5,153 nt of DNA, taken from Escherichia coli. GTDB taxonomy: Bacteria; Pseudomonadota; Gammaproteobacteria; Enterobacterales; Enterobacteriaceae. How positions within the stretch are numbered: the first letter of the stretch is position 1; every line of letters begins with the position of its first letter. Location of the stretch: assembly GCF_013315695.1 (NCBI RefSeq), contig NZ_CP054358.1. The stretch is one strand, 5' to 3'. A program made the translations under genes and the position numbers. This document shows, one piece after another, positions 1 through 5,153 of this stretch. A model generated the notes under the pieces. It was not told the DNA's origin and did no database searches. It saw only the letters and a program-made list of their open reading frames with translations.

Positions 1-53
1 CATCCAACAAGGAGGTTTATAGCGAATATTCCCACAAAAAATCTTTTCCTCAT
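1..53 (-). CDS. kil: Colicin release (lysis) lipoprotein Kil, 5-prime portion: start codon at 53..51, 17 codons plus 2 nt before the window edge; continues at 5153..5069
   Basis: Reverse complement of 1..53 translates to MRKRFFVGIFAINLLVG followed by TG, which with the complement of base 5153 completes a Cys codon, giving a lipobox L-V-G-C. This N-terminus matches the ColE1 Kil protein as I remember it. A Shine-Dalgarno AAGGA (complement of 61..65) sits 7 nt upstream of the ATG. The gene lies downstream of cea and imm on the cea strand, as in pore-forming colicin operons. Confidence 0.85.
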   Translation of the reverse strand, partial: MRKRFFVGIFAINLLVG

Positions 54-100
54 AACTCGATCCTTATAAAATGAAAAGAATATATAACGAGGTTTAATTT

Positions 101-442
101 ATGAGTTTAAGATACTACATAAAAAATATTTTGTTTGGCCTATACTGCGCACTTATATATATATACCTTATAACAAAAAACAACGAAGGGTATTATTTCC
201 TAGCGTCAGATAAGATGCTATACGCAATAGTGATAAGCACTATTCTATGCCCATATTCAAAATATGCTATTGAACACATATTTTTTAAGTTCATAAAGAA
301 AGATTTTTTCAGAAAAAGAAAAAACCTAAATAATGCCCCCGTGGCAAAATTAAACCTATTTATGCTATACAATCTACTTTGTTTGGTCCTAGCAATCCCA
401 TTTGGATTGCTAGGACTGTTTATATCAATAAAGAATAATTAA
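101..442 (+). CDS. imm: Colicin E1-type immunity protein (inner-membrane protein, 113 aa)
   Basis: The 113-aa product [34 protein letters not shown]... is very hydrophobic with about three predicted transmembrane segments, and matches the ColE1 immunity protein as remembered. It is antisense to and convergent with cea; the stop codons overlap (cea ends at 439, imm at 442). GAGG at 90..93 lies 7 nt before the ATG. The gene is markedly AT-rich compared with its neighbours. Confidence 0.93.
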
Positions 443-2004
443 ATACCCAACACCTCATTTATAGTATTAAGTTTATTCTTATCAATAAAGGCACATAGAA
501 TGCCTGTAACAATAGCAATCCCCCAGATACCTAATGTAGTTCCAGCAAGCACACTAAAAAGTAAAACAACAACATAACTAACTCCAGCATCTACAGCTTT
601 CTTCTCTAATGTAAGAAATAGCGGCTTCCAGTCACCTGTATCCTTAATTTTTAGGATATCAGATACCACATCATATCCAAAAGAAACATGTCCCGTAATC
701 TTCAAGTACTTGGCAAACTGATCTAAATGCTTAGCCCAGTCTTCATACTTAACCGCCTCCAGTGCATTGAAAATTGCATCACGGTCTGCTTTGCTGAATT
801 TCTTATTTAATACATCCTTGTATTTCTCAAAAGCAGCTAGAGCTTCATTCACATTGCTGATTTTCTTACCTTTAGATTTATCAGCAAGTTCCTGTGCCAT
901 TTTTGAATATTTTTCACCATATTTTTCAGATAGCGTTTGATAAAAGCTAACTGTTGCATCCACAGCATCCTTAATCTGCGAGTTCAGGAGATTAGTCTGT
1001 GCTGTTTTCAAATTATCTTCAGCATCATGAATACGTGAAACTGCTGTACTTCGCTTATTATTAGCCTGAGAAATAGCCTCTTGGATTCCATTTATCTCAG
1101 AGCTAATCTGGTTAAGACGCGTTTCTGATGCTGTTACCTGCTTTTGTTTTTCCTCCATCTCATCACCAGCTCTCGCCCGTAGTCTGGTGGCCTCAAAAAA
1201 AGGACGACTCTGAAGCGGATCATTCGCCCTAGGAGATAAAAGTTTAACCCTTTCATCCAGTTCTTTATATTTAGCAGATGCCTGATCCAACTCATTTCGT
1301 TTTCCGGACAGCGTATTCGTTTCTGCATCACGGGCATGAATACTGGAGCTTAAACGGGTATTGAGCGTATTAATCTCTTCATCCACTTTCGCCAGCTCAG
1401 ATTGTGCAGCAGCAAGATTTTTTTGTGCCACCTCCACAGCCCGGGCCTCTTCACTCAATGCTGCCAGGCGTTTCTCTTCATCCTCAGCCAGTTTCAATTG
1501 GCGTTCTGTTTCAGCCTGCTCCTTCTCTATCTCTTTACGTCGTTGTTCTGCTTCCTGAAAAGCCTTTTCCGCAGCTTCCGCTTCTTTACGGGCTTTTTCT
1601 TCTGCTTTTGCAAGGCGCAACCGCTCTGCTTCTGCCTGCATCGCTGCATTATTGGCATGAGCCAGGTCAATAACCTCCGGATGAGTGGAATTATGGCGAA
1701 GCGCCTCATTCACAATATCCTTCAGATGTTGAGTCAGCGCATCCCGGTTTGCTTTCGCTTTAGCCTGTGCTTCTGCGGCAGCTTTTGCTCGGGCAGCCTG
1801 TTCTGCCTGCGTTTTCTTCAATTGAGCAGTAGACCATTTAGCTGTGGCATGAATGGCTGCAGAACTTTCACTTTTGCTACCTCCAGTTCCACCACCACCG
1901 CCAGAGCCACTCCCGTCTGGATTACCATTCAAAAGAGTAATGATTACCTGCCCCTTATCATCATAAGGAACACCATCTTTATAGTACGCTACAGCTGTTT
2001 CCAT
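439..2004 (-). CDS. cea: Pore-forming colicin, colicin E1 type (521 aa): glycine-rich N-terminal translocation region, central coiled-coil receptor-binding region, C-terminal channel-forming domain
   Basis: Product begins [27 protein letters not shown]...[18 protein letters not shown] and ends ...[47 protein letters not shown] (hydrophobic hairpin of the channel domain). It is collinear with colicin E1 (522 aa) from memory, with scattered substitutions. AGAGGA precedes the ATG. The promoter with LexA boxes is immediately upstream. Confidence 0.96.
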
Positions 2005-2051
2005 TATAAAATCCTCTTTGACATTAAAAACAAATAGTTAAAAGCAATATA

Positions 2052-2082
2052 CTGTATATATAATCACTGGTTTTATATACAG
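2052..2082 (-). promoter_or_regulatory. Twin overlapping LexA (SOS) boxes of the colicin operon
   Basis: Read on the - strand: CTGTATATAAAACCAG (complement of 2067..2082) and GTGATTATATATACAG (complement of 2052..2067). Both are close to the CTGT-N8-ACAG consensus. They lie between the -10 hexamer and the cea start, as in ColE1. Confidence 0.8.
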
Positions 2083-2086
2083 TTTA

Positions 2087-2115
2087 AAATTACGCCGCTG
2101 CATTTTCCCTGTCAA
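2087..2115 (-). promoter_or_regulatory. sigma70 promoter of the cea-kil operon (-35 TTGACA at 2115..2110, 17-bp spacer, -10 TAATTT at 2092..2087)
   Basis: Reverse complement of 2086..2116 reads TTGACAGGGAAAATGCAGCGGCGTAATTTT. This is a perfect -35 with a 17-bp spacer, and the predicted start site falls inside the LexA boxes. Confidence 0.75.
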
Positions 2116-2263
2116 CCCTGTGGATTTTCATTTTTGTGAAAACGATCAAAAAAACAGCCACCCACACCACGTGCTATTTCCACCCGATGCCACAAAAACC
2201 AGCACAAACATTACCGTTCTCAGACCTCATTATGTTTTACTGAAACCATGAGATGAGACACCT

Positions 2264-2701
2264 ATGGGACACTGTAACTTTATGGCATGGCACACACTCC
2301 GGGACGCACTGAAAATGACTGGAAGATCGCGTTCACAGTTTTACCGTGATATGCGCTCAGGTCTTGTCAGTTACCGTACCAGCCAGGACGGACGACGGGA
2401 GTTTGAAACCAGTGAACTGATCCGGGCATACGGCGAATTAAAGCGGAATGAGACACCAGAAAGGCACACTCAAGGACACTCAGAAAAACCTCATGATCAG
2501 CAGACAGAACGCATTCTCCGGGAACTGAATGAGCTGAAACAATGCCTGACGCTGATGCTTGAGGATAAACAAGCCCAGGATACGGAGCGCCGGCGCCAGG
2601 AAGCAGAACGGAAACAGCTACAGAATGAGATAGCCCAGCTCAGGCAGGCTCTGGAGCAGGAAAAGAAACGGGGATTCTGGTCCAGGCTGTTCGGTCACTG
2701 A
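2264..2701 (+). CDS. Hypothetical DNA-binding protein (145 aa): N-terminal AlpA/Xis-like helix-turn-helix followed by a charged coiled-coil segment; function unknown
   Basis: Intact 145-aa ORF in otherwise uncrowded DNA. Residues around 9-55 (WHTLRDALKMTGRSRSQFYRDMRSGLVSYRTSQDGRREFETSELIRAY) fit the excisionase/AlpA-type HTH pattern (L..a...tG.SRS..Yr....G......gg.r.f...e). The C-terminal part (ERRRQEAERKQLQNEIAQLRQALEQEKKR) is a heptad-like coiled coil. The ribosome-binding site is weak (GAGA upstream of the ATG at 2264) and the true start could be an internal Met, so the start is uncertain. A relationship to the entry-exclusion region reported for ColE1 is possible but I cannot confirm it from memory. 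Confidence 0.6.
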   Translation: MGHCNFMAWHTLRDALKMTGRSRSQFYRDMRSGLVSYRTSQDGRREFETSELIRAYGELKRNETPERHTQGHSEKPHDQQTERILRELNELKQCLTLMLEDKQAQDTERRRQEAERKQLQNEIAQLRQALEQEKKRGFWSRLFGH

Positions 2702-2781
2702 ACGCGCTCAGAAACTGATGATAAGATAATCTTCGGATAATAACTCACCGAGAATAAATACTTTAAGGTAGGGAGACACTC

Positions 2782-3201
2782 ATGAGACGTACCGGAAACA
2801 AACTTTGTCTTATCGCCATGATAACAGCAACAGTAGCTCTCACAGCCTGTACCCCAAAGGGCAGCGTGGAACAACATACCCGGCATTACGTATATGCTTC
2901 TGATGACGGTTTTGATCCCAACTTTTCCACCCAAAAAGCCGACACAACACGAATGATGGTGCCTTTTTTTCGGCAGTTCTGGGATATGGGAGCTAAAGAT
3001 AAAGCGACAGGAAAATCACGGAGTGATGTGCAACAACGCATTCAACAGTTTCACAGCCAGGAATTTTTAAACTCACTCCGGGGCACAACTCAATTTGCGG
3101 GTACTGATTACCGCAGCAAAGACCTTACCCCGAAAAAATCCAGGCTGCTGGCTGACACGATTTCTGCGGTTTATCTCGATGGCTACGAGGGCAGACAGTA
3201 A
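2782..3201 (+). CDS. Predicted lipoprotein (139 aa; signal peptide with lipobox L-T-A-C, mature protein about 116 aa, Thr at +2), function unknown; candidate surface/entry-exclusion-type protein
   Basis: Strong Shine-Dalgarno AGGGAG (2770..2775) 6 nt before the ATG. The N-terminus MRRTGNKLCLIAMITATVALTAC has a positively charged n-region, a hydrophobic core and a lipobox Cys. The mature part is hydrophilic with no catalytic motif I can recognise. The stop codon (3199..3201) lies 5 bp from the XerD arm of cer. Confidence 0.75.
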   Translation: MRRTGNKLCLIAMITATVALTACTPKGSVEQHTRHYVYASDDGFDPNFSTQKADTTRMMVPFFRQFWDMGAKDKATGKSRSDVQQRIQQFHSQEFLNSLRGTTQFAGTDYRSKDLTPKKSRLLADTISAVYLDGYEGRQ

Positions 3202-3205
3202 GTGG

Positions 3206-3235
3206 ATTTACCATAATCCCTTAATTGTACGCACC
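3206..3235 (-). other. cer: cer-type Xer site-specific recombination core (XerC arm, 8-bp central region, XerD arm)
   Basis: Reverse complement of 3206..3235 is GGTGCGTACAATTAAGGGATTATGGTAAAT, matching the ColE1 cer crossover core from memory (XerC site GGTGCGTACAA, central TTAAGGGA, XerD site TTATGGTAAAT). Confidence 0.85.
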
Positions 3236-3335
3236 ACTGAAACGCGCTGAACGCGATTCTGACGCAGACACCGCAAAAAGAGATGTTTTACCCCGGAAAA
3301 ACAGGAAGGATGCGTCAGGATCGTTTTCAGCTCTC

Positions 3336-3349
3336 TGCATAGCTATGCA
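3336..3349. promoter_or_regulatory. Candidate ArgR box within the cer accessory sequences
   Basis: Perfect 14-bp palindrome TGCATAGCTATGCA at the distance from the Xer core where the cer ARG box lies. Assignment is by position and symmetry only. Confidence 0.5.
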
Positions 3350-3425
3350 TGAAAGCGAATGGTGATCACTTTGGGAGCTTACGGTGTTCATACCGTCAGT
3401 TTTCGACAGTTTTCTCTCCGGGAAG

Positions 3426-3773
3426 CTAATCTGCCATAAGCCTGGATAACAGGGCACGGTGATACTCCGTAATAGCGATCAGCACCTCCGCATACTCCCT
3501 GTCCCCGACACGCTTGCCGTCGATAAAGAGTTTTTTCTGTAACGCCCCCAGTCTCATAACTTCTTTCAGTACCCGATCATCAGTCAGTGAGTTAACTTTC
3601 TTACCGAGAGCTGCCGCCCGTAAAAAACCGGAAACGGTCTTGCCGCATTCAGCAGCCCTTTTTCTGATTTCCTGGTCTTCTTCTGCCGTCAGACGAACAG
3701 GGCGACTGATAGCCCGCCTGCGCGTATTACTTCCACTTCGTTTTGTCATAAAACATGGCTCCGTATCTGACAT
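3426..3773 (-). CDS. mbeC: Mobilisation (relaxosome accessory) protein of the MobC/MbeC family, ribbon-helix-helix type; alternative start at 3749 gives 107 aa
   Basis: Product ...RRRAISRPVRLTAEEDQEIRKRAAECGKTVSGFLRAAALGKKVNS...LGALQKKLFIDGK... has the MobC-family signature (R.VRLT.EE...I...A...G.SVS.F.R..ALG). GGAG (complement of 3759..3762) sits 9 nt upstream of the internal ATG at 3749, so that may be the true start. The oriT-like region is immediately upstream. No relaxase gene follows. Confidence 0.85.
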   Translation of the reverse strand: MSDTEPCFMTKRSGSNTRRRAISRPVRLTAEEDQEIRKRAAECGKTVSGFLRAAALGKKVNSLTDDRVLKEVMRLGALQKKLFIDGKRVGDREYAEVLIAITEYHRALLSRLMAD

Positions 3774-3900
3774 GGGTGTCGGGGCAAAGCCCTGACCAGG
3801 GTAATTGTAATAGCGTGCATGTATGCGCGGTATAACAATTACACATCCTGTCCTGTCAGCAAGTTCGAATTACCGACAAAGGCACGGCAGTTTTTTGGCA
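3774..3900. other. oriT/bom-like region (origin of transfer) upstream of mbeC, with inverted repeat 3801..3812 / 3831..3842
   Basis: GGGTGTCGGGGCAAAGCCCTGACCAGG (3776..3802) resembles the start of the pBR322/pMB1 bom region (GGGTGTCGGGGCGCAGCCATGACCCAG) as remembered. It is followed by the inverted repeat GTAATTGTAATA ... TATAACAATTAC, a typical oriT hairpin. The nick position is not determined. Confidence 0.5.
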
Positions 3901-4032
3901 GTGACAGTATTGTCAGGCAGAAATACCCGTCAAAGCGTCAGACGGCAGAATACCGGCGGTAAAACAGTCGAAAAGTGGTACGCGATATAATCACACAACG
4001 CAGATGACAGACAGAACGGAGAAAACGAAAAG

Positions 4033-4227
4033 ATGAACAAGCAGCAGCAAGCCGTACTCAACATGGCAGGATTCATAAAAAGCCAAAGCCTGACGCTGCT
4101 CGAAAAGCTGGACGCACTCGATGCTGACGAACAGGCTACCATGTGTGAGAAGCTGCACGAACTCGCAGAAGAACTCCAGAACAGCATCCAGACACGCTTT
4201 GAAGTAGAAAATAGCACAGAGAGATAA
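4033..4227 (+). CDS. rom: Rom/Rop (RNA one modulator), 64 aa, four-helix-bundle regulator of the RNA I-RNA II kissing complex
   Basis: MNKQQQAVLNMAGFIKSQSLTLLEKLDALDADEQATMCEKLHELAEELQNSIQTRF... aligns along its length with pBR322 Rop (MTKQEKTALNMARFIRSQTLTLLEKLNELDADEQADICESLHDHADELYRSC...). GGAG precedes the start; the gene is adjacent to oriV and oriented towards it. Confidence 0.9.
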   Translation: MNKQQQAVLNMAGFIKSQSLTLLEKLDALDADEQATMCEKLHELAEELQNSIQTRFEVENSTER

Positions 4228-4868
4228 CGCTCAGGACAGGATACCGAACGGCACAACAGAGCGTAAGGAGAAAATGTCACATAAGGCGCTCTTCCGCTTC
4301 CTCGCTCACTGACTCGCTACGCTCGGACGTTCGACTGCGGCGAGCGGTGTCAGCTCACTCAAAAGCGGTAATACGGTTATCCACAGAATCAGGGGATAAA
4401 GCCGGAAAGAACATGTGAGCAAAAAGCAAAGCACCGGAAGAAGCCAGCGACGCAGGCGTTTTTCCATAGGCTCCGCCCCCCTGACGAGCATCACAAAAAT
4501 CGACGCTCAAGCCAGAGGTGGCGAAACCCGACAGGACTATAAAGATACCAGGCGTTTCCCCCTGGAAGCTCCCTCGTGCGCTCTCCTGTTCCGACCCTGC
4601 CGCTTACCGGATACCTGTCCGCCTTTCTCCCTTCGGGAAGCGTGGCGCTTTCTCATAGCTCACGCTGTTGGTATCTCGGCTCGGTGTAGGTCGTTCGCTC
4701 CAAGCTGGGCTGTGTGCACGAACCCCCCGTTCAGCCCGACCGCTGCGCCTTATCCGGTAACTATCGTCTTGAGTCCAACCCGGTAAGACACGACTTAGCG
4801 CCACTGGCAGCAGCCGTTGGTAACTTGGTTAGCAGAGCGATGATGGCGCAAATGGTGCAACAGAGTTC

Positions 4869-4898
4869 TTGAAGTAGTGGCCCGACTACGGCTACACT
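4869..4898 (+). promoter_or_regulatory. RNA I promoter (-35 TTGAAG, 18-bp spacer, -10 TACACT)
   Basis: Hexamers positioned as in pMB1; the RNA I start at about 4905 lies 7 nt downstream of the -10. Confidence 0.6.
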
Positions 4899-4904
4899 GG
4901 AAGG

Positions 4905-5012
4905 ACAGTATTTGGTATCTGCGCTCTGCTGAAGCCAGTTACCTCGGTTAAGCAGTTCCCCAACTGACTTAACCTTCGATCAAACCGCCTCCCCAGGCGG
5001 TTTTTTCGTTTA
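4905..5012 (+). ncRNA. RNA I (antisense copy-number control RNA, about 108 nt)
   Basis: Starts ACAGTATTTGGTATCTGCGCTCTGCTGAAGCCAGTTACC, identical to the 5-prime end and stem-loop 1 of pMB1 RNA I. Ends in a stem (CCGCC 4985..4989 / GGCGG 4996..5000) followed by TTTTTT. -35 TTGAAG (4869..4874) and -10 TACACT (4893..4898) are upstream. Confidence 0.85.
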
Positions 5013-5020
5013 CAGGCAGC

Positions 5021-5049
5021 AGATTACGCGCAGAAAAAAAGGATCTCAA
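5021..5049 (-). promoter_or_regulatory. RNA II promoter (-35 TTGAGA at 5049..5044, 17-bp spacer, -10 TAATCT at 5026..5021)
   Basis: The complement of GGATCTCAAG...AGATTACGCG gives TTGAGA and TAATCT, the same elements as the pBR322 RNA II promoter. Confidence 0.7.
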
Positions 5050-5060
5050 GAAGATCCTTT
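5034..5060 (-). terminator. Hairpin plus short U-run just downstream of the kil stop; candidate terminator of the cea-kil transcript, overlapping the RNA II -35 region
   Basis: Arms AAAGGATCT (5038..5046) and AGATCCTTT (5052..5060) with a 5-nt loop. On the - strand the hairpin is followed by TTTT (complement of 5034..5037). The kil stop is at 5071..5069. Confidence 0.4.
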
Positions 5061-5068
5061 GATCTTTT

Positions 5069-5153
5069 CTACTGAACAGAGATCCCCGTCAATTTAGAAG
5101 AAGATGATGGAGCCACAGTCCCTCCCTGAACATCACGTATATAGTTAGCCTGA
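5069..5153 (-). CDS. kil: Colicin release (lysis) lipoprotein Kil, 3-prime portion (residues about 18-45 plus stop at 5071..5069); joins 1..53 if the molecule is circular
   Basis: Reverse complement of 5153..5069, in the frame set by bases 2..1, reads (C)QANYIRDVQGGTVAPSSSSKLTGISVQ then TAG. This is a near-exact continuation of the ColE1-type lysis protein, giving a 45-aa lipoprotein overall. Neither the ORF track nor a linear gene finder can see it because it is split by the window boundary. Confidence 0.8.
   Translation of the reverse strand, partial: QANYIRDVQGGTVAPSSSSKLTGISVQ

What the first reader, a model, noticed from the sequence alone, without database searches (positions are those of the whole stretch)
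3774..4227. oriT-like element lies between mbeC and rom, with a diverged Rom
In pBR322 the bom-like sequence GGGTGTCGGGGC... lies between rop and the ori. Here the equivalent sequence is on the far side of rom, directly upstream of mbeC, and rom sits between oriT and oriV. Rom is clearly homologous to pBR322 Rop but substantially substituted, particularly in the second helix and the C-terminal tail. Together with the diverged RNA I loops this suggests the replication-control module belongs to a different ColE1-family sublineage than the colicin operon, which would imply a mosaic plasmid.
Basis: partly seen in the sequence, partly recalled or inferred. Interest (0 to 1): 0.3.

Follow-up and report, generated by a model that had tools for sequence, protein, structure and literature searches.

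The report
IncI-type transfer origin on colicin plasmid
The flagged stretch is a transfer origin of the IncI1/R64 type, with its helper-protein gene nikA and a variant rom gene; this well-described module lets an already-sequenced small colicin E1 plasmid ride along with large IncI plasmids, so it is real and mosaic but ordinary.

Summary
The window is a complete 5,153-bp circular ColE1-type colicin E1 plasmid. It is 99.9% identical to pSS046_spB, pHUSEC41-4 and dozens of other records. The motif at 3774, rom at 4033-4227 and the order nikA-oriT-rom-oriV are all real. The "mbeC" is actually NikA: it is 53% identical to IncI NikA and has no detectable similarity to ColE1 MbeC. The oriT is of the IncI1/R64 type. 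It shares only its first ~25 nt with the ColE1/pBR322 bom. No relaxase gene is present. This is the published "NTP16 group" (Moran and Hall 2017). Two members of that group have been shown to be mobilised by IncI1 helper plasmids that supply the relaxase NikB in trans.

Window 4513-5153 plus 1-3235 (RNA I, kil, imm, cea, exc) differs by 1 base from a 6,888-bp MbeABCD-type plasmid. Window 3206-4680 (cer, nikA, oriT, rom, ori-proximal DNA) differs by 4 bases from pCRP3. One junction is exactly the 30-bp cer core. The other is a 168-bp stretch inside oriV that is identical in both lineages. So RNA I travels with the colicin operon, and only rom comes from the other lineage.

Verdict: already known, low interest.

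The parts
3206..3235 (-). cer core recombination site (XerC arm 3235-3225, central region 3224-3217, XerD arm 3216-3206); this is the left crossover interval of the mosaic
   Evidence: The reverse complement is GGTGCGTACAATTAAGGGATTATGGTAAAT. It is identical to ColE1, the 6,888-bp plasmid, pCRP3 and pMUT1 over these 30 bp. Colicin-lineage identity ends at 3236/3238, and nikA-lineage identity begins at 3206. All five nikA-family comparators begin to align at 3203-3206.
3236..3425 (-). cer accessory sequences, nikA-lineage type
   Evidence: 3247-3425 is 99.4% identical to pCRP3 and pMUT1 and has no BLAST match in the 6,888-bp Mbe-type plasmid. The function is inferred from the position next to the core site.
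3426..3749 (-). nikA: a 107-aa ribbon-helix-helix relaxosome accessory protein (a longer ORF runs from the ATG at 3773)
   Evidence: Pfam NikA-like PF21983, E=3.5e-18. 53% identical to IncI NikA, E=4e-38. PDB 2BA3 (R64 NikA N-terminal domain), E=2.4e-5. RefSeq protein WP_000166966.1 is identical in pCRP3, pMUT1, pEDL933-2 and pU302S. A GGAG lies 9 nt before the ATG at 3749; there is none before 3773.
3774..3856 (+). oriT of the IncI1/R64 type (the region homologous to IncI oriTs)
   Evidence: An 83-bp match at 75-87% identity (best E=2e-17) in a search whose 3,573 matching records include 1,912 typed as conjugative. In an IncI-gamma/K1 plasmid the match lies immediately upstream of nikA-nikB. 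84/85 identical to pU302S and 85/85 to pCRP3.
3778..3796 (+). Small inverted repeat GTCGGGGC-AAA-GCCCTGAC (the '8-bp repeat' of IncI oriTs); it lies within the 25 nt shared with the ColE1 bom
   Evidence: Read directly from the sequence. The same arms are present in the IncI plasmid and in ColE1. PMC3817090 describes 8-bp and 17-bp repeat sets as the signature of the R64 oriT.
3801..3842 (+). Large imperfect inverted repeat (arms 3801-3820 and 3823-3842); presumed NikA binding site
   Evidence: the repeat finder: 20-nt arms, 85% complementary, 2 nt apart. This matches the 'longer (20-bp) inverted repeats' reported for this plasmid family (PMC9282650).
3843..3853 (+). Nick region ACATCCTG|TCC; the nick is predicted between G3850 and T3851 on the + strand
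   Evidence: The sequence is identical to the IncI plasmid here. The exact nick position is inferred from my recollection of Furuya and Komano 1991 (nick 8 nt from the repeat, IncP-like ATCCTG). Those papers could not be opened.
3857..4032 (.). Spacer between oriT and rom; it presumably holds the rom and nikA promoters
   Evidence: 100% identical to pCRP3 and 82.7-99.4% to other family members. One promoter-like site on the minus strand (3933 to 3906), which is no more than chance expects.
4033..4227 (+). rom/rop: a 64-aa RNA I-RNA II kissing-complex binding protein, nikA-lineage variant
   Evidence: Pfam Rop, full length, E=4.5e-31. PDB 1ROP E=5e-17. WP_001041621.1 is identical in pCRP3. About 54% identical to ColE1 Rom.
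4228..4512 (-). Ori-proximal part of oriV, nikA-lineage type
   Evidence: 4228-4450 is 98.7% identical to pCRP3 but only 84.6% to the 6,888-bp plasmid. The last difference from the 6,888-bp plasmid is at 4512.
4513..4680 (-). Right crossover interval: a 168-bp stretch of the RNA II template identical in both parental types
   Evidence: Three-way alignment.
4681..5055 (-). 5' part of the RNA II template and its promoter, colicin-lineage type
   Evidence: No differences from the 6,888-bp Mbe-type plasmid over 4681-5055 (per-segment values). RNA I and the RNA II promoter are only 67-69% identical to pCRP3.
4907..5009 (+). RNA I antisense regulator
   Evidence: Rfam RF00106, 87.4 bits, E=7.4e-16. 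100% identical to the 6,888-bp plasmid, 73.8% to ColE1 and 68.9% to pCRP3.

Best explanation
Window 3774-3856 is an origin of conjugative transfer of the IncI1/R64 type. It sits directly upstream of nikA, which encodes its own ribbon-helix-helix accessory protein. The plasmid has no relaxase gene.

Proposed mechanism:
- NikA binds the large inverted repeat (3801-3842).
- A co-resident I-complex conjugative plasmid supplies the relaxase NikB in trans. NikB cuts the + strand in ACATCCTG|TCC, predicted at 3850/3851.
- The helper's type IV secretion system then exports that strand 5' to 3'. Under this prediction rom and oriV enter the recipient first and nikA enters last.

rom (4033-4227) is an ordinary but diverged Rop. 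It should stabilise the RNA I-RNA II kissing complex whatever the loop sequence.

The block cer-nikA-oriT-rom plus ori-proximal DNA (3206-4680) is the conserved backbone of the published NTP16/pCERC7 group of ColE1-type plasmids. In this plasmid it is joined to an RNA I/RNA II-kil-imm-cea-exc1-exc2 block that is otherwise found on MbeABCD-type ColE1 plasmids. The hybrid most likely arose from one XerCD exchange at the cer core and one homologous crossover in a conserved part of oriV.

Shown here: the homologies, the gene content, the absence of a relaxase gene, and both junctions at base resolution.
From the literature: mobilisation of family members by IncI1 helpers.
Inferred: the nick position, the strand polarity, mobilisation of this particular plasmid, and the recombination route.
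For: Identity of the module:
- Pfam NikA-like; 53% identity to IncI NikA; PDB 2BA3 hit.
- 83-bp oriT match; 1,912 of the matching records are typed as conjugative.
- An oriT-nikA-nikB layout in an IncI-gamma/K1 plasmid.
- A 20-nt inverted repeat and a conserved nick region.

No relaxase:
- No ORF beyond the annotated genes; seven or eight CDSs in the deposited records.

Family membership:
- The same NikA protein, WP_000166966.1, in pCRP3, pMUT1, pEDL933-2 and pU302S.
- oriT 84/85 identical to pU302S.
- The 3247-4255 block is present in 525 plasmid records.

Function in relatives:
- pU302S is mobilised by IncI1 helpers but not by IncX helpers (PMC8623487).
- NTP16 is mobilised by R64, and the family was defined by Moran and Hall 2017 (PMC9282650).
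- pEC156 was mobilised by R64drd11, and a derivative lacking both of its oriT loci (F-type and R64-type) was not (PMC4743918).

Mosaic:
- 3,876 bp with 1 mismatch to the 6,888-bp Mbe-type plasmid, and 1,475 bp with 4 mismatches to pCRP3. The two segments overlap only at 3206-3235 and 4513-4680.
- PMC6807383 reports that colicin E1 is the only colicin operon found on two plasmid families, including the 'NTP16 group'.
Against: - There are no mobilisation data for this exact plasmid.
- NikA is only 53% identical to IncI NikA, and the oriT is 75-87% identical to IncI oriTs, so efficiency and the preferred helper are unknown.
- PMC9282650 suggests an unidentified helper group may fit better. I found no conjugative plasmid in the sampled hits with a NikA above about 55% identity.
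- pKPN2 has an R64-like oriT but was reported not to be mobilised by R64drd11, so sequence similarity alone does not guarantee function.
- The nick position rests on recalled literature that I could not open.
- The recombination route is inferred from the junction positions only, and its direction (which plasmid was the recipient) cannot be determined.
- The one cointegrate-like record (pF2_18C_Col) may be an assembly artefact.
Confidence: 0.85

Rival explanations
1. One reading: the element is the ColE1/pBR322 bom (the MbeA-type oriT) moved to the other side of rom and paired with mbeC.
For: The first ~25 nt (GGGTGTCGGGGCnnAGCCCTGACC) are nearly identical to the ColE1 bom. The neighbouring gene encodes a small relaxosome accessory protein of the same size (107 aa) as the ColE1 MobC-family protein.
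Against: Beyond 25 nt there is no convincing alignment to bom, while the IncI oriT aligns over 83 bp including the nick region. The protein is NikA-like in Pfam, not MobC. BLASTP finds no alignment to ColE1 MbeC. No mbeA, mbeB or mbeD is present.
Confidence: 0.02
2. The oriT-nikA pair is a decaying remnant left after loss of nikB and no longer supports transfer.
For: No relaxase gene is present. pKPN2, which has an R64-like oriT, was not mobilised by R64drd11.
Against: NikA is at least 99% identical in 327 plasmid records that carry very different cargo. The oriT differs by 0-2 of 85 aligned positions from recently sequenced family members. Two members with the same or near-identical NikA and oriT are mobilised by IncI1 helpers. 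That degree of conservation across cargo types argues for selection.
Confidence: 0.07
3. The apparent mosaic is an assembly artefact, or simply uneven divergence within one lineage.
For: Small ColE1-type plasmids share repeats that confuse assemblers. One related record, pF2_18C_Col, looks mis-joined.
Against: The same 5,153-bp circle appears at 99.7-99.9% identity in many independent records from E. coli, S. sonnei and S. dysenteriae, including pSS046_spB and pHUSEC41-4. Identity to each parental type switches abruptly, from 100% to no match or to below 70%, at two defined points. Uneven divergence does not produce that pattern.
Confidence: 0.01
4. The hybrid arose by two ordinary homologous crossovers, or by replicative template switching, without Xer recombination at cer.
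For: The right junction is a plain 168-bp identical stretch. Nothing here measures Xer activity.
Against: The left junction coincides exactly with the 30-bp XerC/XerD core. That is short for RecA-dependent exchange. It is also the recurrent boundary of variable cargo in every nikA-family plasmid compared, in line with the title of Moran and Hall 2017.
Confidence: 0.2

Closest known systems
pSS046_spB (Shigella sonnei Ss046, NC_009346.1), pHUSEC41-4 (E. coli HUSEC41, NC_018996.1) and about 40 other 5,153-bp records
   Same: The same plasmid: 100% coverage, 99.7-99.9% identity, the same gene order, and the same NikA and Rop proteins.
   Different: A handful of SNPs. Some relatives have small indels or deletions (5,159, 5,014, 4,913, 4,760 and 4,698 bp).
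NTP16 group / pCERC7 family of nikA-bearing ColE1-type plasmids (Moran and Hall 2017; 'MOB_RNA type 5' in PMC6807383), e.g. pCRP3, pMUT1, pOSAK1-type pEDL933-2, pU302S, NTP16
   Same: An identical or near-identical NikA, a conserved oriT with a 20-nt inverted repeat, no nikB, the order cer-nikA-oriT-rom-oriV, and variable cargo that starts at the cer core.
   Different: The cargo here is a colicin E1 operon plus exc1 and exc2. In addition, the RNA I / RNA II-5' control region is not of the family's usual types: it is 100% identical to that of an MbeABCD-type plasmid.
oriT-nikA-nikB relaxosome module of IncI1 plasmid R64 and other I-complex plasmids
   Same: The small and large inverted repeats, an identical nick-region sequence, the oriT immediately upstream of nikA, and a NikA ribbon-helix-helix domain.
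   Different: No nikB. NikA is only 53% identical. The inverted-repeat arms are longer (20 nt against 17). The host is a 5-kb ColE1 replicon that depends on a helper.
ColE1/pBR322 bom with mbeC-mbeA(B,D) (MOB-HEN / MOBP5)
   Same: The first ~25 nt, including the small inverted repeat. Both are oriTs served by an RHH accessory protein. Both are ColE1-type replicons with rom.
   Different: In ColE1, bom lies between rom and oriV and the plasmid encodes its own relaxase MbeA. Here the nick region and the large repeat are unrelated to bom, the accessory protein has no BLASTP-detectable similarity to MbeC, and the oriT lies on the far side of rom.
6,888-bp MbeABCD-type colicin E1 plasmids (e.g. NZ_CP065609.1)
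   Same: RNA I, RNA II 5' part, kil, imm, cea, exc1, exc2 and the cer core: 3,876 bp with 1 mismatch.
   Different: In place of window 3236-4512 they carry their own cer accessory DNA, mbeD/B/(A)/mobC, a ColE1-type rom and their own rom-to-ori region. I did not locate a bom in this record; the exact 12-mer GGGTGTCGGGGC is absent from it.

Membership tests
NTP16 group / pCERC7-type nikA-bearing ColE1-like plasmids | ColE1-type RNA I / RNA II replicon | tested here: met
   Rfam RNAI, 87.4 bits against a gathering score of 47. oriV aligns with ColE1 over 4256-5153.
NTP16 group / pCERC7-type nikA-bearing ColE1-like plasmids | Encodes the family's conserved NikA (reported as identical across members, about 53% identical to R64 NikA) | tested here: met
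   WP_000166966.1 is shared with pCRP3, pMUT1, pEDL933-2 and pU302S. 53% identical to IncI NikA.
NTP16 group / pCERC7-type nikA-bearing ColE1-like plasmids | Highly conserved oriT (up to 3 mismatches) with about 20-bp inverted repeats | tested here: met
   0-2 differences in 85 aligned positions against pCRP3, pU302S, pMUT1 and pEDL933-2. 20-nt arms.
NTP16 group / pCERC7-type nikA-bearing ColE1-like plasmids | No nikB or other relaxase gene | tested here: met
   The six-frame ORF list shows no candidate. The deposited annotations list none.
NTP16 group / pCERC7-type nikA-bearing ColE1-like plasmids | Variable segment placed next to the multimer resolution (cer) site | tested here: met
   Homology to five family members starts at 3203-3206, the outer edge of the cer core.
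NTP16 group / pCERC7-type nikA-bearing ColE1-like plasmids | Mobilised by an I-complex helper that supplies the relaxase in trans | not testable with these tools
   Shown for NTP16 and pU302S in the literature. Not shown for this plasmid.
IncI1/R64-type oriT | Two sets of inverted repeats (small 8-bp, large about 17-bp) next to a conserved nick region, immediately upstream of nikA | tested here: met
   Small repeat 3778-3796 (read directly), large repeat 3801-3842, nick region identical to an IncI plasmid, nikA adjacent. The signature is described in PMC3817090.
IncI1/R64-type oriT | Cognate relaxase NikB encoded in cis downstream of nikA | tested here: not met
   nikA ends at 3426 and is followed by cer, not nikB. 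Compare the IncI plasmid.
IncI1/R64-type oriT | Site- and strand-specific nicking by NikB at the predicted position | not testable with these tools
   The nick at 3850/3851 is an inference from recalled literature. The source papers are not held.
ColE1/pBR322 bom (MbeA-type oriT) | Sequence homology across the bom nick region | tested here: not met
   Only about 25 nt at the left end align. The rest, including the nick region, does not.
ColE1/pBR322 bom (MbeA-type oriT) | Accompanied by an MbeC/MobC-family accessory protein and the MbeA relaxase | tested here: not met
   Pfam gives NikA-like, not MobC. BLASTP finds no alignment to ColE1 MbeC. No mbeA, mbeB or mbeD.
Rop/Rom family | Full-length match to the Rop helix-turn-helix fold family | tested here: met
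   PF01815, positions 1-57 of 57, E=4.5e-31. PDB 1ROP E=5e-17.
Rop/Rom family | RNA-contacting residues of helix 1 conserved (Asn10, Phe14, Gln18, Lys25; the residue list is from memory of Rop mutagenesis work) | tested here: met
   N10, F14, Q18 and K25 are all present in the alignments.
cer-type Xer multimer resolution site | 30-bp XerC-central-XerD core identical to ColE1 cer | tested here: met
   3206-3235 is identical to ColE1.

The most novel reading that the evidence does not exclude
The base-resolution junctions suggest that ColE1-type plasmids swap whole mobilisation modules by pairing one XerCD exchange at the cer core with one homologous crossover in the conserved part of oriV. In this plasmid that would have replaced a self-sufficient MbeABCD relaxase system with a relaxase-less, IncI-dependent oriT-nikA module. 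It would also have replaced rom while keeping the RNA I incompatibility determinant and the colicin operon. The same route may have put a colicin K-type cargo on this backbone (CP125069.1). The general idea, cargo exchange at the resolution site, is already implied by Moran and Hall 2017. What could be new is only the explicit two-junction mechanism and the switch in helper dependence.
Probability: 0.5. Interest if true: 0.25.

Novelty: already known. Interest (0 to 1): 0.1.

Why it matters
It matters mainly for correct annotation.

- This widespread small colicin plasmid of E. coli and Shigella depends on I-complex helper plasmids for its spread. It is not a self-mobilising ColE1 with a relocated bom.
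- Databases label its accessory gene inconsistently (MobA, nikA) and type the plasmid as carrying a 'MOBF relaxase' that it does not have.
- The clean two-parent structure is a tidy textbook example of how ColE1-family plasmids reshuffle modules at cer and oriV.
- It opens no new question.

Tried and rejected
- A relocated ColE1 bom with mbeC: rejected after the three-way oriT alignment and the protein comparisons.
- pF2_18C_Col (9,683 bp) as a natural cointegrate intermediate. It has two directly repeated cer cores whose resolution would give a circle of about 5.04 kb with the window's layout. However, the record is linear and lacks the shared 117 bp at one oriV junction. I therefore treat it only as evidence that both plasmid types occur in one strain.
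- A full-text search for the motif GGGTGTCGGGGC: the top-listed papers were unrelated by title (apparently vector or primer sequence) and were not opened.
- Attempts to open the original R64 oriT papers and Varsaki 2009 failed because they are not held.
- My recalled accession for pU302S was wrong: NC_006816 is pU302L. It was corrected to NC_006815.
- The promoter scan of 3400-4300 gave one site, no more than chance.
- A search for a conjugative plasmid with a closer NikA found none above about 55% among the sampled hits. Six records in the 60-80% band were not inspected.
Full report
**What the window is.** The 5,153 bases are a complete circle. The colicin lysis gene (kil) reads across the end of the window into its start, giving [45 protein letters not shown]. 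The whole window matches 5,153-bp plasmid records at 99.7-99.9% identity over 100% of its length. These include pSS046_spB of Shigella sonnei Ss046 and pHUSEC41-4 of E. coli HUSEC41. At least 43 PLSDB records are 99% identical or better.

The map is as follows:

| Feature | Coordinates | Strand |
|---|---|---|
| imm | 101-442 | + |
| cea (521-aa pore-forming colicin of the E1 type) | 2004-439 | - |
| exc1 | 2264-2701 | + |
| exc2 | 2782-3201 | + |
| cer | about 3206-3425 | - |
| small RHH gene | 3749-3426 | - |
| oriT | 3774-3856 | + |
| rom | 4033-4227 | + |
| oriV | about 4256-5055 | - |
| RNA I | 4907-5009 | + |
| kil | across the junction | - |

**Checking the observation.**
- GGGTGTCGGGGC occurs once, exactly at 3774. 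About 0.0006 occurrences of a given 12-mer are expected by chance.
- rom is a full-length Rop-family protein: Pfam E=4.5e-31 and PDB 1ROP E=5e-17.
- rom is 34-35/64 identical to the Rom of ColE1 and of the 6,888-bp plasmid. Helix 1, with N10, F14, Q18 and K25, is better conserved than helix 2 and the tail.
- In genuine ColE1 (NC_001371) the 12-mer lies between rom (1612-1803) and oriV.
- Two parts of the observation fail. The neighbouring gene is not mbeC, and the sequence is not the equivalent of bom.

**What the element is.**
- The 107-aa protein is NikA-like: PF21983 E=3.5e-18. It is 53% identical to the NikA of an IncI-gamma/K1 conjugative plasmid, E=4e-38. It matches the solved N-terminal domain of R64 NikA, PDB 2BA3. 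BLASTP finds no alignment to ColE1 MbeC.
- Window 3774-3856 matches large conjugative plasmids over 83 bp at 75-87% identity, with a best E-value of 2e-17. Of the 3,573 records matched, 1,912 are typed as conjugative.
- In the IncI-gamma/K1 plasmid I inspected, the match lies immediately upstream of nikA-nikB.
- A three-way alignment shows that the window and the IncI plasmid share three things: the small inverted repeat, the large inverted repeat, and an identical ACATCCTGTCC nick region. ColE1 bom shares only the first ~25 nt, GGGTGTCGGGGCnnAGCCCTGACC.
- The large repeat has 20-nt arms at 3801-3820 and 3823-3842.
- PMC3817090 describes the R64 oriT signature as two repeat sets (8 bp and 17 bp) immediately upstream of nikA.
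- In the window nikA is followed by cer, not nikB, and no relaxase gene exists anywhere on the plasmid.

**It is a described family.**
- The same NikA protein (WP_000166966.1) is encoded by pCRP3, pMUT1 of E. coli Nissle 1917, the pOSAK1-type plasmid of EDL933, and pU302S.
- The oriT differs at 0-2 of 85 aligned positions among these plasmids.
- The 3247-4255 block occurs in 525 plasmid records.
- PMC9282650 summarises Moran and Hall 2017 (Plasmid 89:42). pCERC7, pU302S, NTP16 and relatives carry an identical NikA (53% identical to R64's) and an extremely conserved oriT with 20-bp repeats. They carry no NikB. NTP16 is mobilised by R64.
- PMC8623487 shows that pU302S is mobilised by IncI1 helpers but not by IncX helpers.
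- PMC4743918 shows that pEC156, which carries an F-type and an R64-type oriT, is mobilised by F and by R64drd11, and that a derivative lacking both loci is not. It also notes that pKPN2, with similar sequences, was not mobilised by R64.
- PMC6807383 calls this family 'MOB_RNA type 5 / NTP16 group'. It reports that 6 of 48 members carry a colicin E1 operon in one highly conserved cluster, and that colicin E1 is the only colicin operon found on two plasmid families. The window is evidently one of that cluster.

**How it most likely works.** Homology shows that this is an IncI-type oriT with its own NikA. The rest is inferred from the literature on R64 and on family members.
- NikA binds the large repeat.
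- A co-resident I-complex plasmid supplies NikB. NikB nicks the + strand 8 nt beyond the repeat, predicted at G3850|T3851.
- The helper's secretion system exports the strand 5' to 3'. Under that prediction rom and oriV enter first and nikA enters last.
- The nick position rests on my recollection of Furuya and Komano 1991, which I could not open.
- Rom should act generically on the RNA I-RNA II kissing complex.

**The mosaic question.**
- A 6,888-bp plasmid with mobC and mbeB/D (NZ_CP065609.1) carries the same colicin and immunity proteins. It is identical to the window over 4513-5153 plus 1-3235, with 1 mismatch in 3,876 bp.
- That plasmid has no detectable match to 3247-4255 and is only about 85% identical over 4228-4450.
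- pCRP3 matches 3206-4680 with 4 mismatches in 1,475 bp. It is only 67-69% identical in RNA I and the RNA II promoter.
- The two parental-type segments overlap at two places only. One is 3206-3235, which is exactly the XerD arm, central region and XerC arm of the cer core. The other is 4513-4680, a 168-bp stretch of the RNA II template that is identical in all three plasmids.
- All five nikA-family plasmids I compared begin to align with the window at 3203-3206. The cer core is therefore the recurrent cargo boundary, as the title of Moran and Hall's paper implies.

RNA I and the RNA II promoter (the antisense control and incompatibility determinant) travel with the colicin operon. Only rom, the ori-proximal DNA, oriT, nikA and the cer accessory region come from the nikA lineage.

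The most economical route is one XerCD exchange at cer plus one homologous crossover in oriV. The direction of the exchange cannot be determined. Outside the 5,153-bp family, the best match to the whole 3247-5055 backbone is 97.3%.

**Supporting context.**
- The hybrid-specific junction (exc2-cer-nikA-oriT) is covered at 80% or more in 16 of 5,426 complete E. coli genomes and in 24 PLSDB records.
- A 5,119-bp plasmid (CP125069.1) has a colicin K-type immunity and lysis cargo plus exc2 on the same backbone. This suggests repeated exchanges of this kind.
- pF2_18C_Col (9,683 bp) looks like a cointegrate of both plasmid types with two directly repeated cer cores. However, it is a linear record that lacks 117 shared bases at one junction, so it may be an assembly path through a repeat.
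- NikA identities in PLSDB fall into two groups: 379 records at 95% or more, 2,556 below 60%, and 6 in between. No better-matched helper is evident.

**Verdict.** The element, the plasmid and its family are all already known. Interest is low.

Noticed in passing
window 5071-5153 joined to 1-55 (minus strand): The kil (colicin lysis) ORF runs across the window ends, so the window is a complete circular plasmid rather than a fragment.
   Followed up: yes
window 3774-3798; ColE1 L004 about 1521-1497 (minus strand); IncI plasmid L005 4001-4025: ColE1 bom and IncI-type oriTs share a nearly identical 25-nt element (GGGTGTCGGGGCnnAGCCCTGACC, containing the 8-bp inverted repeat), even though their nick regions and accessory proteins are unrelated. 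Its role in ColE1, and why it is shared, were not resolved. A full-text search for the string listed only papers that looked unrelated by title.
   Followed up: partly
PLSDB typing of L001, L003, L006-L010, L012, L013, L015-L017: MOB-suite typing, as given by PLSDB, lists 'relaxase MOBF' for these nikA-only plasmids, which encode no relaxase at all. RefSeq names the NikA homologue 'MobA'. Both labels are misleading.
   Followed up: no
L014 (NZ_CP043543.1, pF2_18C_Col) 1-9683; cer cores at 3028-3057 and 8072-8101: This record has the layout of a cointegrate of an Mbe-type colicin E1 plasmid and a nikA-type cryptic plasmid. Resolution at its two direct cer cores would give a circle of about 5.04 kb with the window's architecture. 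The record is linear and lacks 117 shared bases at one oriV junction, so it may be an assembly artefact.
   Followed up: partly
L015 (CP125069.1, 5,119 bp); also NZ_CP049851.1 (5,119 bp): A colicin K-type immunity and lysis cargo with exc2 sits on the same nikA-oriT-rom backbone (97.3% identical over 3247-5055). This suggests that colicin modules have been joined to this backbone more than once.
   Followed up: partly
window 4415-4786 and 4714-4872 (+ strand ORFs inside oriV): Some deposited records annotate these ORFs as 'hypothetical protein' or 'replication initiation protein'. They lie inside the RNA II template of a ColE1 replicon, a type known not to need a plasmid-encoded initiator protein, so they are probably spurious.
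   Followed up: no
window 2052-2082: Two overlapping LexA-box-like sequences (CTGTATATATAATCAC and CTGGTTTTATATACAG) lie just upstream of cea, as expected for an SOS-controlled colicin promoter. Read directly from the sequence.
   Followed up: no
PLSDB tblastn with NikA: NikA identities fall into two groups (379 records at 95% or more, 2,556 below 60%), with only six records at 60-80%. Those six were not inspected and could include an intermediate lineage or a better-matched helper.
   Followed up: no
E. coli chromosomes, e.g. NZ_CP082103.1 1174617-1175105: Exc2-like sequence (about 89% identical to window 2711-3199) occurs on E. coli chromosomes. 140 of the 965 matching places for the 2400-4000 query were chromosomal.
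   Followed up: no
window 3933-3906 (minus strand): A single sigma-70-like site (TTGACG, 16 nt, AATACT) points toward oriT and nikA. The count (1) is no more than the shuffled expectation (0.7), so it is not evidence of a promoter.
   Followed up: no
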